Shown: piece by piece, positions 8,100 through 12,144 of the stretch
Position numbering within the stretch: the stretch's first letter is position 1
How the letters are laid out: each line of letters starts with the position of its first letter
Made by a program: the position numbers and the translations under genes
The notes under the pieces: model-generated
Database searches by the model: none
Seen by the model: only the letters and a program-made list of their open reading frames with translations
What the model was told of the DNA's origin: nothing
Assembly: GCA_902772105.1 (NCBI GenBank)
Contig: CACXZI010000002.1
Location: forward strand, 2,588-66,587
DNA: 64,000 bases
Origin: Oscillospiraceae bacterium
GTDB lineage: Bacteria > Bacillota > Clostridia > Oscillospirales > Ruminococcaceae
Direction: 5' to 3'

Positions 8100-9470
8100 G
8101 TGAAAAACAAAAAGATGTTTAAAATATTGGTTGGTGCTTTTTTTATATTAGGGTTGAATGTTTCCGCTTTTGCAGAAAATATTAATTTAGTTGAAGATTC
8201 TAGCAAAAATATAGAAAAAAAGCGATGGTCAAATAAGGAAGAATTTGCTTTATATAATTTTTTGTATGAAGATAGGGTGGTTATTAATGTTAAAAAATTT
8301 CCTGATGCTAATGTTGCGGTTGGAAAATATAAAATTGCAGTTAAAAATGGTAGTTTAAATTTGTTAAAAAAATATAGGAACATTGTGGACTATTTAAAAA
8401 TAAATAATATAAATAGTTTAGAAAAAATAACAGAACCAAATCATTTTAAGCAAATATTAGAAATAATTTTAAAAAATTATAAATCGGACGAAGAAAAATT
8501 AAATTTAAGGTCAAAAAATTTTGAAAGACATGCAAATAGTGAAGAATTTAAAAAAGAACAAAAAAATTTGCAGTTAAAAATAAAATATGTGAATGAAATT
8601 TTAAATGATGAAAAAAATTTTGATAAAACAAGACAAAATTATTTGAAATATGTTAAAGAGGCAGATATAATTGAAAAAACTGATTTTGAAAAAGAGTTAA
8701 ATGAAATATTATCAAATAATAATGTTAAAATGAATAATAATATGAAAATTTTAGAAATTGAACAAGGTCAAGACCAAGAATTAACTTTTTATAGGTTTTT
8801 GTCTACTGACATAATGGACATTAATGTTAGAAGATTTTCTGAAGATGCTAATGTTGCAGTTGAAAGGCATAAAACCATTGTTAGAAATGGTGTTTTAAAA
8901 TTTTTAACAACATATAAAGATGTTATGAACTATTTTAAAATGAATAATATAAATAACCTAGAAAAAATAGTAGAACAGGGGCATTTTAAACAAATATTAG
9001 AATTAATTTTAAATAATTATAAGTTAGATAAAGAAAAATTAAATGCAGAATTAGAAAATTTAAAAAAAGATGTTATAACAGATGAAATTAAATTAGAATA
9101 TAAACAAGAAAAACAAAAACGAATAGATGATTTAAAAATTATGTTGAATATTCCTTTAAAAAATGATGGAAAAGAGGATATAGAAAAAGAAAAATTAAGA
9201 ATAGAAAATTTAAAAAAAGAAAAAGAAAATTTAGAAAATAATTTAGAAAATTTTGGAGGAGATATTTTTAAAGAATATTTAAATAGAAAAAAAATTTCGT
9301 TAGAAAGTGAATTAAGTTATTTGTCGGTAAATATAAAACATTTAGATGAAATTTTAAATAACACGACATATTTTGAAAGAGCAAGACAAAATTATTTAAC
9401 ATATGTTAAAGAAGCTGATAGAATTGACAAAACTGATTTTGAAAAAGAGTTAAATGAAACATTAAAATAA
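8100..9470 (+). CDS. Secreted lysine-rich protein, paralog family member P1 (two tandem modules)
   Basis: AAGGAG RBS at 8085-8090. The GTG at 8100 gives MKNKKMFKILVGAFF..., matching the N-termini of P2 and P4, whereas the listed TTG at 8091 abuts the RBS. Signal peptide ends VSAFA|EN. No known domain recognised. Confidence 0.8.
   Translation: MKNKKMFKILVGAFFILGLNVSAFAENINLVEDSSKNIEKKRWSNKEEFALYNFLYEDRVVINVKKFPDANVAVGKYKIAVKNGSLNLLKKYRNIVDYLKINNINSLEKITEPNHFKQILEIILKNYKSDEEKLNLRSKNFERHANSEEFKKEQKNLQLKIKYVNEILNDEKNFDKTRQNYLKYVKEADIIEKTDFEKELNEILSNNNVKMNNNMKILEIEQGQDQELTFYRFLSTDIMDINVRRFSEDANVAVERHKTIVRNGVLKFLTTYKDVMNYFKMNNINNLEKIVEQGHFKQILELILNNYKLDKEKLNAELENLKKDVITDEIKLEYKQEKQKRIDDLKIMLNIPLKNDGKEDIEKEKLRIENLKKEKENLENNLENFGGDIFKEYLNRKKISLESELSYLSVNIKHLDEILNNTTYFERARQNYLTYVKEADRIDKTDFEKELNETLK
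8238..8711 (+). repeat. Intragenic module A of P1
   Basis: Contains FPDANVAVGKYKIAVKNGSLNLLKKY...YLKINNINSLEKITEPNHFKQILEIILKNYK...RQNYLKYVKEADIIEKTDFEKELNEIL. It is repeated 540 nt downstream. Confidence 0.85.
8778..9467 (+). repeat. Intragenic module B of P1 (with a ~100-aa K/E coiled-coil insertion relative to A)
   Basis: Contains FSEDANVAVERHKTIVRNGVLKFLTTY...YFKMNNINNLEKIVEQGHFKQILELILNNYK...RQNYLTYVKEADRIDKTDFEKELNETL. DNA patches are about 85-90% identical to module A by eye. Confidence 0.85.
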
Positions 9471-9511
9471 AATTTTTATAATTAGTAGATTTAAGTGGGA
9501 GATTATTTGAG

Positions 9512-10423
9512 ATGAAAAACAAAAGAATGTTAAAAATATTGGTGGGAATTTTTTTAACAATGAGTTTTGCTGTTCCTGTTTTTGCTAGAAAAAAAGTTAC
9601 ATTTCCTACAAAAAAAGTGGTGTTAAAAGAAAAAGATAGAACATCTATTTTTAGTTATTTATTTAGAAATAAAAATGAAATAGATTTGGGTTATGTTAAT
9701 ACAAGAAGGTTTCCAGGAGGAAAAAAAGATAAAATCGCACTTATAAGAGCAAAACAAATGTTTAAGAATTCTATTTTAAACATGTATAAAGAATATCCAA
9801 AATTTGTGAAATATTTTAAAATGAATAATATAAATTCATTAAAAGAAGTAACAGACAAAAAACATTTTAGTCCAATATTTAAGCTAATTTTAGAATATAA
9901 AGAAAAGCAAAAACAAAAAATCAAATCAAATTCAAATAGTTGGTTTAAACATATTAAAAGTGAAGGATTTAAAAATGAATATGAAGAAAAAATAAAAAGA
10001 GAATTAGGTAATTTAAAGGCATGTTTAAAATTTAGTTCAAAAAATCCAGGTAAACAAGATAAAAAAACAAAAGAAGCAGAAATGAAATTAATAGAAAAAA
10101 TAAATAAAGTAAAAGAAGATCTAAAAAATTTAAAAAAATCTAAATATTTACAAAATCCTAAATTTGAAGAATATGCTAAAAATCAAAAAGAGTCTTTAAA
10201 AGGGAAATTAGAAATGTTAAATTTAGAAATAACTCATATTAAACAAATTTTGAGTGATAAAGAAATTCTTGAAATATCGAGAATAAATTTTGCAAAGTAT
10301 GTTAAAGAAGCAGATAGAGATGAAGGATCAAATTTTGATGAAGATATTAAAAAAATTATTAAAGGTGAAAAAGTTTTGAGAGTTGCATCGAAAAAATCTG
10401 AAGAAAAAATAAAAAAAATATGA
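9512..10423 (+). CDS. Secreted lysine-rich protein, paralog family member P2
   Basis: N-terminus MKNKRMLKILVGIFLTMSFAVPVFA|R. Shares YFKMNNINSLKEVTDKKHFSPIFKLILEYK and NFAKYVKEADRDEGSNFDEDIKKII with the P1 modules. GGGAG RBS. Confidence 0.8.
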   Translation: MKNKRMLKILVGIFLTMSFAVPVFARKKVTFPTKKVVLKEKDRTSIFSYLFRNKNEIDLGYVNTRRFPGGKKDKIALIRAKQMFKNSILNMYKEYPKFVKYFKMNNINSLKEVTDKKHFSPIFKLILEYKEKQKQKIKSNSNSWFKHIKSEGFKNEYEEKIKRELGNLKACLKFSSKNPGKQDKKTKEAEMKLIEKINKVKEDLKNLKKSKYLQNPKFEEYAKNQKESLKGKLEMLNLEITHIKQILSDKEILEISRINFAKYVKEADRDEGSNFDEDIKKIIKGEKVLRVASKKSEEKIKKI

Positions 10424-10505
10424 TAGTAAAGAAAATATTTTTAAAATTAATGGTTTAGCGAAAAAAATTTGATTAAAAATTAAAGTTCATCTTAAACATG
10501 ATTAT

Positions 10506-10534: not shown

Positions 10535-10560
10535 GATGAGAGATTGGTTAAGGAGAAATT

Positions 10561-11295
10561 ATGATGAAAAGAAGTGTTTTAAAAATTTTTGCAGGGTTAA
10601 TTGTTTTTAGTTTAACTGTTCCTGTTTTTGCTAAAAATAGTTCGAAAAAAATTAGTGGATCTGCTGTTGTGAGCTCTTTTACGGTTGATGATTTAGTTAA
10701 GTTTGGTAGAAAAGATATCACTGGTGGTTCTATGTCACAGAGGTTATTAAAAGAAATTCGACAAAATGACATTTTAAAAGATTATATTAAAAAAAATAAA
10801 ATATATACTGCGGATAAGGTGTCTAAAAATTTTGAAGAAATATTAGAAAAAGCGATTAAAGGGAAGGAAAAATTAATTAAAGAAAATAAAAAAAAGATAG
10901 GTAGGATGGATGAAAAAGGAATAAAAAAGGAATTTAAAAAAGATATGAAAGCTTCCATTGAATATTTTAAAAAAGTTTTAGATGGAAAGAAAAAAGTTTT
11001 AGATGAAAAGGTTGAATTAGGAAAAAATTTTAAGTTAACGAAAACGCAATTAAAAGATCAAATAAAAAAAATAGAGGGTGCAATGAAGAAATGTAGTGGT
11101 AGAATTTTTGAAGAATATAAGAATGGTATGCCTAGATATTTGAAAGACTCCTTAGCTCAACATAAAAAAGATATGGATGATTTAAAAAATTTAAAAAAAG
11201 ATGAAGCAAGTTTAGGTTTTGCCAAAGGAATGATAGGTGCATTGTTTAAAAATAATAAAAATTTTGTAAAAACAATTAAAGAAATAGTTAATTAA
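10561..11295 (+). CDS. Secreted lysine-rich protein, paralog family member P3 (divergent subfamily)
   Basis: N-terminus MMKRSVLKIFAGLIVFSLTVPVFA|K. Shares the signal peptide and the KNKIYTADKVSKNFEEILEK motif with P4 (DNKIFTVNDITRNFGDILRK). AGGAG RBS. Confidence 0.75.
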   Translation: MMKRSVLKIFAGLIVFSLTVPVFAKNSSKKISGSAVVSSFTVDDLVKFGRKDITGGSMSQRLLKEIRQNDILKDYIKKNKIYTADKVSKNFEEILEKAIKGKEKLIKENKKKIGRMDEKGIKKEFKKDMKASIEYFKKVLDGKKKVLDEKVELGKNFKLTKTQLKDQIKKIEGAMKKCSGRIFEEYKNGMPRYLKDSLAQHKKDMDDLKNLKKDEASLGFAKGMIGALFKNNKNFVKTIKEIVN

Positions 11296-11388
11296 AAAGT
11301 TTGAGTTATAGATTCAAGGTTTTTTGTGGATTAAACTATTAATTTTTGAAAGATAATTTTAAAATTTTGAATGAGAGGTTTAGTTAAA

Positions 11389-12144
11389 ATGAAAAATAAA
11401 AAGATGTTGAAAATTCTGTCAGGGTTTATTATTTTTAGTTTAACTGTTCCCGTTTTTGCTAGAGTGAAGGATAAAAAAGTTAAGAGGGTTTTTGAAACTT
11501 TTTTAGATAGTAGTGATTTAAAAAAAGAGAATAAAGGTGCAAAATATTGTTTGTTAACATTTGTGGAACAAGAGATGCACGATAGCAAAGAATTTAGAAA
11601 GTATTTACAAGATAATAAAATATTTACTGTTAATGATATTACTAGAAATTTTGGAGATATATTAAGAAAAATAGTTGATTTAAAAAAGAAAAAAGTAGAA
11701 AGAGACGAAAAAAAATTAAATAAATGGGGAAAGATAATAGAATCACAAAAGTTTAAAAAACAATATACAAAATATCAAAGAAATGCTGCAAAAAGTTGGA
11801 GGGTTTGTGGAGTAACAAGTCCAAAGTATGAAAAATTAGAAGAGAATGAAGCACGAAAACTTGTTGAAAAAGATGTTAAAAAAATGTTAAAAGATGCTGA
11901 AGATTATGAAGGAGAAGCATTTTTGAAATATAAAAAATGGAAAAAAGAAGAATTAGAAGATTATGTAAAATGTAATAAAGCTACTATAAACGACATAAAT
12001 AAAATTTTATCAACTAAAAATAGATTAAAAACAGCGGTTGATATGTATAAAGAAATTGTTAAGTCTTGTAGAAAAGAACAAAAAATGATGTATAAAGGTT
12101 TTGAAAAAAATTTAAAAAAGGAGATTTTGAACGAAAAGAATTAA
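11389..12144 (+). CDS. Secreted lysine-rich protein, paralog family member P4 (divergent subfamily)
   Basis: The ATG at 11389 sits 10 nt after GAGAGG and gives MKNKKMLKILSGFIIFSLTVPVFA|R. The listed ATG at 11371 has no RBS. Confidence 0.75.
   Translation: MKNKKMLKILSGFIIFSLTVPVFARVKDKKVKRVFETFLDSSDLKKENKGAKYCLLTFVEQEMHDSKEFRKYLQDNKIFTVNDITRNFGDILRKIVDLKKKKVERDEKKLNKWGKIIESQKFKKQYTKYQRNAAKSWRVCGVTSPKYEKLEENEARKLVEKDVKKMLKDAEDYEGEAFLKYKKWKKEELEDYVKCNKATINDINKILSTKNRLKTAVDMYKEIVKSCRKEQKMMYKGFEKNLKKEILNEKN

What the first reader, a model, noticed from the sequence alone, without database searches (positions are those of the whole stretch)
8100..12144. Tandem family of signal-peptide-bearing, lysine-rich proteins with no recognisable domain
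Four consecutive same-strand genes, five modules because P1 is internally duplicated. All start with near-identical Sec-type signal peptides: MKNKKMFKILVGAFF..VSAFA, MKNKRMLKILVGIFL..VPVFA, MMKRSVLKIFAGLIVFSLTVPVFA and MKNKKMLKILSGFIIFSLTVPVFA. None has a lipobox Cys, so they look secreted rather than lipid-anchored. Two subfamilies are visible. P1a, P1b and P2 share YxKxNNINxLxxxxxxxHFxxIxxxILxxYK and a C-terminal YVKEADxxxxxxFxxx(L/I) box. P3, P4 and the pseudogene share NKI(Y/F)T..(D/K).(S/T)(K/R)NF(E/G)(E/D)IL(E/R)K. The mature parts are K/E-rich and look coiled-coil. I recognise no Pfam-type domain. The block sits between pgi and pyrE, has its own consensus promoters, and is flanked by long AT-rich spacers. 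That is the signature of a lineage-specific, rapidly evolving accessory locus, possibly surface, host-interaction or spore-surface proteins.
Basis: seen in the sequence. Interest (0 to 1): 0.7.

Follow-up and report, generated by a model that had tools for sequence, protein, structure and literature searches.

The report
Orphan family of exported helical proteins
Four neighbouring genes in an uncultured, very AT-rich gut Clostridia bacterium encode a rare, fast-changing family of exported, mostly very basic all-helical proteins that resemble nothing known; their function is still unknown.

Summary
Four same-strand genes (P1 8100-9470, P2 9512-10423, P3 10561-11295, P4 11389-12144) encode five homologous modules. 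Each protein starts with a Sec/SPase-I-type signal peptide and has no lipobox, LPXTG motif or known wall-binding domain.

No pseudogene exists in this window. The array lies between pgi and the RNase P RNA gene (12168-12501), not directly next to pyrE.

Pfam, NCBIfam, PHROGs, PADLOC, PDB sequences and Foldseek (PDB, BFVD) give nothing significant, even with a confident AlphaFold model (pLDDT 87, pTM 0.79, all-alpha). A profile search of 1.84 billion representative proteins found only 13 hits.

Copy number at the same site ranges from 0 to 5 genes in sister species, with fusion, loss and pseudogenes. Proteins diverge far faster than flanking genes (61-73% versus 95-98% identity). The signal peptide is the best-conserved part. 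Canonical sigma-A-type promoters recur upstream.

Most members are strongly basic (pI 9.4-10). Each multi-gene locus also carries an acidic or neutral paralogue.

The most likely role is a non-enzymatic, exported envelope- or polyanion-binding protein, possibly acting as heteromeric complexes. This is inference only. Interest is moderate.

The parts
7932..7960 (+). Sigma-A/sigma-70-like promoter candidate for P1 (TTGAAA-17-TATAAT, 11/12), about 140 nt upstream of the start codon
   Evidence: An 11/12 site lies at the equivalent position (-170) upstream of the first family gene in L001, and an identical site at -168 in L002.
8100..9470 (+). P1, 456 aa, GTG start. Two fused family modules: P1a (8100-8720, including signal peptide 8100-8174, lacks the central variable region) and P1b (8721-9467, full-length module without a signal peptide). 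The mature protein is about neutral (pI 7.2; P1b pI 5.7).
   Evidence: Orthologues of 436-491 aa: L002 gene, P0007, P0018-P0021.
9512..10423 (+). P2, 303 aa. Signal peptide 9512-9586 (MKNKRMLKILVGIFLTMSFAVPVFA). Mature part 22.6% Lys, net charge +34, pI 9.9.
   Evidence: AlphaFold model m41c3996f1674: pLDDT 75.5, pTM 0.69, all-alpha.
10506..10534 (+). Perfect sigma-A/sigma-70 consensus promoter (TTGACA-17-TATAAT) 27 nt upstream of the P3 start
   Evidence: Only five 12/12 sites occur in the 64 kb window (both strands), and all lie just upstream of genes.
10561..11295 (+). P3, 244 aa. Signal peptide 10561-10632. Net charge +26, pI 9.9. Contains a 21-bp x2 in-frame tandem duplication at 10969-11010.
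   Evidence: 7-aa insert relative to P0008.
11389..12144 (+). P4, 251 aa. Signal peptide 11389-11460. Net charge +23, pI 9.65.
   Evidence: AlphaFold model mf02c61356b83: pLDDT 87.3, pTM 0.79, all-alpha.
12168..12501 (+). RNase P RNA (class A). Not part of the family. It is the conserved downstream boundary of the site where the array expands and contracts.
   Evidence: 266.6 bits. Same position in L001, L002, L003, L004 and L087.

Best explanation
The four genes are real, vegetatively transcribed genes for a lineage-restricted family of exported, non-enzymatic, all-alpha-helical proteins.

Proposed mechanism:
1. Each gene, or gene pair, is transcribed from a canonical sigma-A-type promoter and translated from a strong ribosome-binding site.
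2. The conserved 24-25-residue N-terminus directs Sec export. It has an n-region MKNKKxLK, a roughly 14-residue h-region, and a c-region (V/A/T)(P/S)(V/A)F(A/S). Signal peptidase I cleaves it after ...VFA.
3. The 20-30 kDa mature protein has no covalent anchor and no known wall-binding module. It folds into a bundle of 16-31-residue helices built around a hydrophobic core. The only family-wide conserved residues are Phe and Ile.
4. A variable-length helical insert and the surface residues diverge quickly.
5. Most members carry +16 to +40 net charge. I infer that they stay bound electrostatically to anionic polymers outside the membrane, such as teichoic or other wall polymers, extracellular DNA, or host or plant polyanions. 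I also infer that they act as a coat, adhesin or shield rather than as enzymes.
6. Acidic or neutral paralogues are encoded alongside the basic ones and arose more than once from basic sisters. This suggests charge-complementary hetero-complexes.
7. The array evolves by birth and death (duplication, fusion, indels, pseudogenisation, loss) at one fixed site between pgi and rnpB.

Shown here: genes, homology, signal-peptide anatomy, predicted fold class, rarity, copy-number turnover, elevated evolutionary rate, promoter matches. Inferred: actual export and cleavage, localisation, polyanion binding, hetero-association, biological role.
For: - Gene reality: the ORFs are conserved in at least six related species or strains with dN/dS below 1 (0.18-0.57). 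Ribosome-binding sites are present.
- Promoters: 12/12 or 11/12 sigma-A consensus sites lie upstream of family genes in the window, L001, L083 and L084. All five 12/12 sites in the window precede genes.
- Signal peptide: the n/h/c anatomy and small residues at -3/-1 are seen in all members with intact N-termini. No lipobox, LPXTG or YSIRK. The Kyte-Doolittle 19-residue maximum is about 1.9-2.5 in the signal peptide and at most 0.97 anywhere in a mature part.
- Fold: all-alpha models with pLDDT 75.5 and 87.3, pTM 0.69 and 0.79.
- Non-enzymatic: invariant or near-invariant columns are only Phe and Ile.
- Charge: pI 9.4-10 and net +16 to +40 in most members. Acidic or neutral members P1b, P0010, P0011, L001 F3 and L083b fall in three separate clades next to basic sisters.
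- Turnover and rate.
Against: - No experimental or expression data were available.
- No formal signal-peptide predictor was run.
- Basic charge partly reflects the AT-rich genome (median 12% Lys), although P2-P4 are outliers.
- No known wall- or ligand-binding module was found, so retention at the surface is purely inferred.
- The neighbourhood is rich in sporulation genes: spoIID, a PBP5-type carboxypeptidase, spoIVA, sipL, and spoIIID next to the L084 pair. This keeps a sporulation role open.
- The acid/base pairing rests on only three independent lineages and a crude neighbour-joining tree.
Confidence: 0.4

Rival explanations
1. The array is a secreted antagonistic or toxic multi-component system. 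Basic and acidic helical paralogues would be released into the medium and assemble on a target membrane (competitor bacterium, protozoan or host cell), like bi- or tripartite alpha-helical pore-forming toxins or large Sec-dependent bacteriocins.
For: - Tandem paralogues each carry a Sec signal peptide, and the fold is all-alpha.
- The weak top Foldseek rows include AhlC, SmhB, AhlB, YaxAB, MakA and XaxB.
- Basic and acidic paralogues are co-encoded.
- Evolution is fast and copy number varies.
- In Hbl and Nhe, one of the three components also lacks predicted transmembrane regions (PMC8065917).
Against: - The Foldseek hits are not significant (E >= 0.23, TM <= 0.31).
- No Pfam Bacillus_HBL or other toxin-family hit in 22 members.
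- No member has a hydrophobic head or beta-tongue: the mature KD19 maximum is at most 0.97. In Hbl and Nhe, two of three components carry predicted transmembrane segments.
- No immunity-like small membrane protein gene lies in the array.
- L003 has a single gene.
Confidence: 0.15
2. The proteins are sporulation- or spore-associated exported proteins. They would be secreted into the intermembrane, cortex or coat space, or deposited on the spore surface.
For: - The host is a spore-former, and the array lies among spoIID, a PBP5/S11 carboxypeptidase, spoIVA and sipL.
- In another species the gene pair lies directly upstream of spoIIID and a PRC-barrel gene.
Against: - Canonical sigma-A-type promoters (11-12/12) recur upstream of family genes in several species.
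- Synteny with sporulation genes is not specific. pgi, rnpB, pyrE and citrate synthase are equally adjacent.
- Sister species L004 keeps the spoIVA/sipL/spoIID neighbourhood but has no family gene.
- My regex search for sigma-E/K/F/G motifs was uninformative, because it failed even on the spoIVA and spoIID controls.
Confidence: 0.1
3. The N-terminal hydrophobic segment is not cleaved. It would act as a signal-anchor, so the proteins are membrane-tethered with an extracytoplasmic helical domain. The strong conservation of the segment would then reflect a structural role in the membrane.
For: The N-terminal 24 residues are the most conserved part of the family: about 51% identity against about 23% in the mature part among divergent pairs. 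This is unusual for a disposable signal peptide.
Against: - The hydrophobic core is only about 14 residues.
- It is followed by Pro at -4 to -6 and by small residues at -3 and -1 (VFA, AFA, VSA). This is the classical SPase I layout.
- AlphaFold gives it pLDDT below 50, detached from the bundle.
Confidence: 0.1
4. The ORFs are decaying or non-functional lineage-specific genes with no current role.
For: - Frameshifted or fragmented copies occur in relatives: a P4-type remnant in L087, a split P2-type in L093, a truncated P1-type in L095.
- L004 has lost the array completely.
- dN/dS is raised to 0.41-0.52 between near-identical strains.
Against: - All four window genes are intact, with ribosome-binding sites and promoters.
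- Orthologues are kept across species at dN/dS 0.18-0.57, below 1.
- The hydrophobic core positions are conserved, and the fold is predicted with confidence.
Confidence: 0.03

Closest known systems
Tripartite and bipartite alpha-helical pore-forming toxins of the ClyA superfamily (B. cereus Hbl and Nhe, Aeromonas Ahl, Serratia Smh, YaxAB)
   Same: Two to four tandem paralogous genes. In Gram-positives each product has a cleaved Sec signal peptide (PMC8065917). The soluble forms are all-alpha elongated bundles. These are the recurring, though non-significant, top Foldseek rows.
   Different: No sequence-profile match. Foldseek E >= 0.23 and TM <= 0.31. No hydrophobic head or beta-tongue in any member. 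Smaller (20-30 kDa against 36-45 kDa). Extreme lysine content.
Borrelia PFam54 (CspA/BBA68-type) and similar paralogous helical lipoprotein arrays (comparison from my own knowledge, not tested here)
   Same: Tandem array of fast-diverging, Lys-rich, all-helical 20-30 kDa exported proteins in a very AT-rich genome. Conserved leader peptides. Copy number differs between species.
   Different: The Borrelia proteins are lipoproteins with a lipobox Cys; these have none. There is no detectable homology. This array is chromosomal, in a core site between pgi and rnpB, not on a plasmid.
Staphylococcal tandem families of exported proteins (SSL cluster; Lpl/DUF576 tandem lipoproteins) (from my own knowledge)
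   Same: Head-to-tail paralogue arrays with conserved N-terminal export signals, strain-variable copy number and accelerated divergence.
   Different: Different folds (SSL is OB plus beta-grasp; Lpl proteins are lipoproteins). No Pfam match here.
Lactobacillus-type S-layer proteins (from my own knowledge)
   Same: Sec signal peptide, no Cys, very basic pI (9.4-10), non-covalent electrostatic attachment to anionic wall polymers, strong vegetative promoters, sometimes with a long 5' leader (P1 promoter about 140 nt upstream).
   Different: S-layer proteins are larger, largely beta-rich and carry defined wall-binding regions. No SLH, CWB2 or SLAP profile match here. A predicted all-alpha bundle is not a typical lattice former.
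YSIRK-G/S-type specialised signal peptides (from my own knowledge)
   Same: A signal peptide that is conserved as a motif across otherwise divergent proteins, which hints at information beyond generic Sec targeting.
   Different: The YSIRK motif and its spacing are absent, and there is no Pfam YSIRK_signal hit. Conservation here is within one paralogous family and could simply be inherited.

Membership tests
Sec / signal peptidase I secretory proteins | Positively charged n-region, 10-15-residue hydrophobic h-region, and a c-region with small uncharged residues at -3 and -1 | tested here: met
   By inspection and hydropathy: MKNKKxLK, then about 14 hydrophobic residues, then (V/A/T)x(A/S). KD19 is about 1.9-2.5 only at the N-terminus. 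SignalP or DeepSig was not available.
Bacterial lipoproteins (SPase II substrates) | Lipobox [LVI][ASTVI][GAS]C at the end of the signal peptide | tested here: not met
   No lipobox in 23 members. No Cys in the first 35 residues of the window proteins.
Covalently or modularly wall-anchored surface proteins (LPXTG; SLH, CWB2, LysM, GW, choline-binding) | C-terminal LPXTG sorting signal or a recognised wall-binding domain | tested here: not met
   No LPXTG-like motif. No Pfam or NCBIfam domain at E <= 1.
ClyA-superfamily alpha-pore-forming toxins (Hbl/Nhe/Ahl/Smh) | Sequence-profile membership (for example Pfam Bacillus_HBL) | tested here: not met
   No such hit for the window proteins at E <= 1, and none among the families listed for 22 members.
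ClyA-superfamily alpha-pore-forming toxins (Hbl/Nhe/Ahl/Smh) | Hydrophobic head or beta-tongue (predicted transmembrane segments) in the membrane-inserting components (PMC8065917) | tested here: not met
   The maximum 19-residue Kyte-Doolittle mean in any mature member is 0.97, below the usual 1.6 threshold.
ClyA-superfamily alpha-pore-forming toxins (Hbl/Nhe/Ahl/Smh) | Structural superposition on the tail-plus-head helical fold | tested here: not met
   Foldseek against PDB: AhlC E 0.35, TM 0.17-0.23; SmhB E 0.44, TM 0.25.
ClyA-superfamily alpha-pore-forming toxins (Hbl/Nhe/Ahl/Smh) | Tandem paralogous genes, each product with a Sec signal peptide | tested here: met
YSIRK-G/S signal-peptide proteins | (Y/F)SIRKxxxGxxS motif in the signal peptide | tested here: not met
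   Regex negative in all members. No Pfam hit.
Phage- or plasmid-borne accessory proteins | Homologues in phage or plasmid records, or phage protein families | tested here: not met
   tblastn against 50,697 phage and 72,556 plasmid records: no match. PHROGs: only marginal hits, E >= 5e-4, in low-complexity stretches. IMG/VR scan: none. PADLOC: none.
S-layer proteins | Self-assembly into a two-dimensional lattice on the cell surface | not testable with these tools
   Needs microscopy or biochemistry. Only the basic pI and the Sec signal are shared.

The most novel reading that the evidence does not exclude
The array encodes a previously undescribed multi-component extracellular system. Charge-complementary paralogues (basic P2/P3/P4-type plus acidic or neutral P1-, F3- or P0010-type) with a new all-alpha fold would be exported through a family-specific, conserved signal peptide. 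They would then co-assemble outside the cell into a heteromeric coat, fibre or membrane-active complex. Rapid birth-and-death evolution would reflect an arms race with phages, protozoa or the host.
Probability: 0.12. Interest if true: 0.7.

Novelty: new variant of a known kind. Interest (0 to 1): 0.4.

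Why it matters
Tandem arrays of fast-evolving exported proteins are usually where a bacterium meets its surroundings: host, phage or competitors. This family has no detectable relative in any curated protein library or solved structure, yet AlphaFold predicts a confident fold. 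It occurs only in a handful of uncultured, extremely AT-rich gut or rumen Clostridia.

If its localisation and ligands were established, that would put a function on a piece of microbial "dark matter". It might also add a new helical fold. The pgi-rnpB hot spot (0-5 genes in sister species) would become a useful strain- and species-level marker and a compact natural example of gene birth, fusion and decay.

In practice, the work here shows only that the genes are real, exported-looking and orphan. Nothing links them to a phenotype yet.

Tried and rejected
- Pseudogene in the window: tblastn, motif regexes and an extended family HMM on all six-frame fragments of at least 20 aa found none.
- Known-domain searches: Pfam (window proteins and 22 members), NCBIfam, PHROGs, PADLOC, and PDB sequence profiles built from A1 and A3. 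All negative or marginal.
- Fold searches: the P2 model against PDB and BFVD, and the P4 model against PDB. No hit with E below 0.1, and TM at most 0.31. AFDB was not available.
- Wider sequence space:
  - GTDB species representatives with the family profile: none.
  - JGI metagenome contigs, with the A1 profile and with P4 alone: none. These scans depend on short degenerate patterns and may miss relatives.
  - IMG/VR: none.
  - Phage and plasmid tblastn: none.
  - Alignment A2 was too diverse for the locus finder.
- Alpha-pore-forming-toxin reading: rejected as a membership claim because there is no hydrophobic head, no profile hit and no structural match.
- Sporulation sigma-factor motif regexes matched nothing, not even upstream of the spoIVA, sipL and spoIID controls, so the test was uninformative.
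- Idea that rnpB depends on read-through from P4, which would prove that the array is transcribed: dropped. A conserved TG-extended -10-like element precedes rnpB, and L004 has its own TTGACA-17-TAAAAT there.
- Gene conversion as the cause of signal-peptide conservation: orthologous and paralogous signal-peptide identities are similar (about 67-75% by eye), so there is no clear signal. Not pursued.

Full report
**1. What is in the sequence**

The region holds four consecutive plus-strand ORFs.
- P1, 8100-9470: GTG start, with GAAGGAG 8 nt upstream.
- P2, 9512-10423.
- P3, 10561-11295.
- P4, 11389-12144: the ATG at 11389 follows GAGAGG and matches the family N-terminus, so the ATG at 11371 is unlikely.

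P1 is an internal duplication. P1a and P1b are 50% identical over 110 residues (E 1e-31), and both end in the YVKEAD...F box. The family HMM shows that P1a lacks the central region.

All modules are homologous: P2 versus P1 E 3e-27, P2 versus P4 about 1e-12, P3 versus P4 7e-14. This is one family.

I found no pseudogene in the window by tblastn, motif regex or HMM over all six-frame fragments.

The array is bounded upstream by pgi (6323-7657). Downstream, 24 nt after the P4 stop, lies a class-A RNase P RNA gene at 12168-12501 (266.6 bits). Then come a 940-bp spacer of 13-15% G+C, a 784-aa orphan gene (P5) and pyrE on the minus strand.

**2. Protein properties**

The N-termini show the classical signal-peptide layout:
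- a basic n-region;
- a hydrophobic core of about 14 residues;
- a Pro near -5;
- small residues at -3 and -1 (VFA, AFA, VSA).

No member has a lipobox, an LPXTG-like motif or a YSIRK motif. The only hydrophobic 19-residue window is in the signal peptide (Kyte-Doolittle about 1.9-2.5). Mature parts reach at most 0.97.

P2-P4 are the three most lysine-rich ORFs of at least 200 aa in the window (21-22% against a median of 12.3%). They carry net +23 to +34, with pI 9.65-9.9. P1 is about neutral, and P1b has pI 5.7.

AlphaFold2 was run with family alignments.

| Protein | pLDDT | pTM | Fold |
|---|---|---|---|
| P2 | 75.5 | 0.69 | all-alpha |
| P4 | 87.3 | 0.79 | all-alpha |

- In both models the signal peptide and the first mature residues are of low confidence.
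- The body consists of helices of 16-31 residues.
- Length variation between members maps to one central helical insert.
- The only invariant or near-invariant columns are Phe and Ile. That points to a conserved core with no catalytic signature.

**3. Comparison with known families**

| Library | Result |
|---|---|
| Pfam, NCBIfam, PHROGs, PADLOC | no meaningful hit; no weak hit recurs across 22 members |
| PDB sequences, profile search | nothing below E 1e-3 |
| Foldseek, both models vs PDB; P2 model vs BFVD | best E 0.13-0.35, TM at most 0.31 |

The top, non-significant Foldseek rows are generic long-helix proteins: chemoreceptor hairpins, SMC arms, and ClyA-family toxins such as AhlC and SmhB.

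**4. Distribution**

- Word-indexed searches of 5.8 billion clusters found three relatives each for P2 and P4, and nine with a family profile.
- An exhaustive profile search of 1.84 billion 50%-identity representatives gave 13 hits at E <= 1e-3. At least two of these, an 875-aa repeat protein and a 1574-aa eukaryote-like helicase, look spurious.
- Pattern-limited scans found none in 185,579 GTDB species representatives, JGI metagenome contigs or IMG/VR.
- tblastn against phage and plasmid records found none.
- SpoIVA places the host among uncultured low-G+C Clostridia (Oscillospiraceae- or Ruminococcaceae-labelled MAGs). The nearest species representatives are 85% and 82% identical.
- Record names (RUG, STEW19) suggest rumen or gut samples. 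That is an inference from the names only.

**5. The locus in relatives**

The backbone is conserved: spoIID, citrate synthase, orf308, PBP5-type carboxypeptidase, pgi, [array], rnpB, (P5), pyrE, spoIVA, sipL. The content of the array varies.

| Locus | Family genes between pgi and rnpB |
|---|---|
| L095 | five (P1, P2, P3, F3 and P4 types); the P1-type is truncated |
| L093 | same set, but the P2-type is split by a frame change |
| window and L002 | four (no F3-type) |
| L001 | four (no P1-type, has F3-type) |
| L087 and L090 | two, plus a multi-frame P4-type remnant (tblastn 2e-32) |
| L003 | one distant member of 237 aa |
| L004 | none; rnpB directly follows pgi |

In another species, a pair of recent paralogues sits at a different site, upstream of spoIIID.

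P3 in the window carries a fresh 21-bp tandem duplication.

This is birth-and-death evolution at a fixed hot spot.

**6. Evolutionary rate**

Window against L001:

| Genes | Amino-acid identity | dN/dS |
|---|---|---|
| P2, P3, P4 | 61%, 69%, 73% | 0.57, 0.27, 0.18 |
| PGI, SpoIVA, citrate synthase | 95%, 98%, 97% | 0.03-0.07 |
| other flanking genes | 79-90% | 0.09-0.20 |

Between the near-identical strains (window against L002), dN/dS is 0.41-0.52 for the family and 0.03-0.14 for the flanks. Selection is purifying overall but clearly relaxed or partly diversifying.

The signal peptide is the best-conserved segment. Among divergent pairs it is about 51% identical, against about 23% for the mature parts. 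It is also nearly identical at the DNA level between P3 and P4.

**7. Expression signals**

- A perfect TTGACA-17-TATAAT site lies 27 nt upstream of P3, and an 11/12 site lies about 140 nt upstream of P1.
- Equivalent 10-12/12 sites occur upstream of family genes in L001, L083 and L084, some at conserved distances.
- In the whole window only five 12/12 sites exist on both strands, and all sit just upstream of genes. The consensus is therefore meaningful in this organism.
- This favours vegetative, sigma-A-driven transcription.
- My attempt to score sporulation-sigma motifs failed on the positive controls and is uninformative.

**8. Charge dichotomy**

Most members are strongly basic. Every locus with two or more genes also encodes an acidic or neutral member:
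- P1b, pI 5.7;
- P0010, pI 5.25;
- P0011, pI 5.28;
- L001 F3, pI 6.1;
- L083b, pI 6.1.

In a crude neighbour-joining tree these fall in three separate clades. Two of them lie next to basic sisters: P0010 beside P0009, and P1b beside the P2-type. This hints at repeated selection for charge-complementary partners. It rests on few independent events.

**9. Interpretation**

- **Well supported:** these are real genes for Sec-type exported, unanchored, non-enzymatic all-alpha proteins. They form an orphan, lineage-restricted, rapidly turning-over family.
- **Most likely mechanism (inferred, about 0.4):** after cleavage, the basic bundles stay bound by charge to anionic polymers of the Gram-positive envelope or the surroundings. 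They may do so as heteromers with the acidic paralogues, and would serve as a coat, adhesin or shield.
- **Rivals:**
  - a secreted multi-component membrane-active or antagonistic system (0.15; weakened by the lack of any hydrophobic head);
  - sporulation- or spore-associated proteins (0.1; weakened by the sigma-A promoters and by L004);
  - an uncleaved signal-anchor (0.1);
  - decaying genes (0.03).

**10. Novelty and score**

The kind of thing is familiar: a tandem, fast-evolving array of exported paralogues. The protein family and its predicted fold match nothing curated or solved. I rate it "new variant of a known kind", with interest 0.4. It is a clean and unusually rare orphan family with tidy evolutionary dynamics, but nothing links it to a function, and the host is uncultured.

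Noticed in passing
window 12168-12501 (+): Class-A RNase P RNA gene (266.6 bits) starts 24 nt after the P4 stop codon. In relatives it always marks the downstream edge of the array. In L004, which has no family gene, it follows pgi directly and has its own TTGACA-17-TAAAAT. A TG-extended -10-like element is conserved upstream of it in the window, L001 and L095.
   Followed up: partly
window 13446-15800 (+): P5 is a 784-aa orphan protein with a signal-peptide-like N-terminus and 18.5% Lys. It has no Pfam, NCBIfam or PDB hit. An HxxEH motif (H101, E104, H105) is invariant in the L001 orthologue (80% identical) and in a distantly related 867-aa protein of L003. This suggests a very divergent, secreted M16-like (inverzincin) metallopeptidase. 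It is present next to the array in the window, L001, L093 and L095, but not in L087.
   Followed up: partly
window 10969-11010 (+): A 21-bp x2 in-frame tandem duplication inside P3 (KKVLDGK/KKVLDEK). It is absent from the close homologue P0008 and looks like a very recent indel.
   Followed up: partly
L087 10697-11625; L093 9524-10460; L095 9312-9533: Decayed or frame-shifted family copies in sister species: a P4-type remnant spread over several frames (L087), a P2-type split into 80-aa and 43-aa ORFs (L093), and a P1-type whose C-terminal box lies in a separate 67-aa ORF (L095). These could be true pseudogenes or assembly errors.
   Followed up: partly
window 10506, 20592, 55945, 61473 (+) and 17219-17247 (-): All five perfect TTGACA-17/16-TATAAT matches in the 64 kb window lie immediately upstream of genes (P3, rubrerythrin, two genes near 55992 and 61543, and pyrE). 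The organism evidently uses a canonical sigma-70 consensus despite about 22% G+C.
   Followed up: partly
window 12502-13445 and 7658-8099: Very AT-rich spacers (13-17% G+C) with no ORF, no family remnant, no Rfam hit at gathering threshold and only short low-complexity repeats. Their role is unexplained (regulatory region, or the decayed remains of lost genes).
   Followed up: partly
window 3930-4856 (+): A conserved 308-aa hydrophobic protein (GRAVY +0.88, pI 9.6) with no Pfam hit lies between citrate synthase and the PBP5-type carboxypeptidase. It is syntenic in all related loci and 75-99% identical.
   Followed up: no
window 1051-2352 (-), 4944-6203 (+), 17292-18767 (-), 18910-20424 (-): The neighbourhood is rich in sporulation genes: spoIID, an S11/PBP5 carboxypeptidase, spoIVA and sipL. 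The host is therefore an endospore-former of the Clostridia. SpoIID evolves unusually fast here (79% identity to L001, against 98% for SpoIVA).
   Followed up: partly
L084 6063-7904; L083 1770-3636: In another species, two recently duplicated family members sit at a different chromosomal site, directly upstream of spoIIID and a PRC-barrel gene. One is basic and one acidic, and both carry a long extra helical insert. The family is therefore not tied to the pgi-rnpB site.
   Followed up: partly
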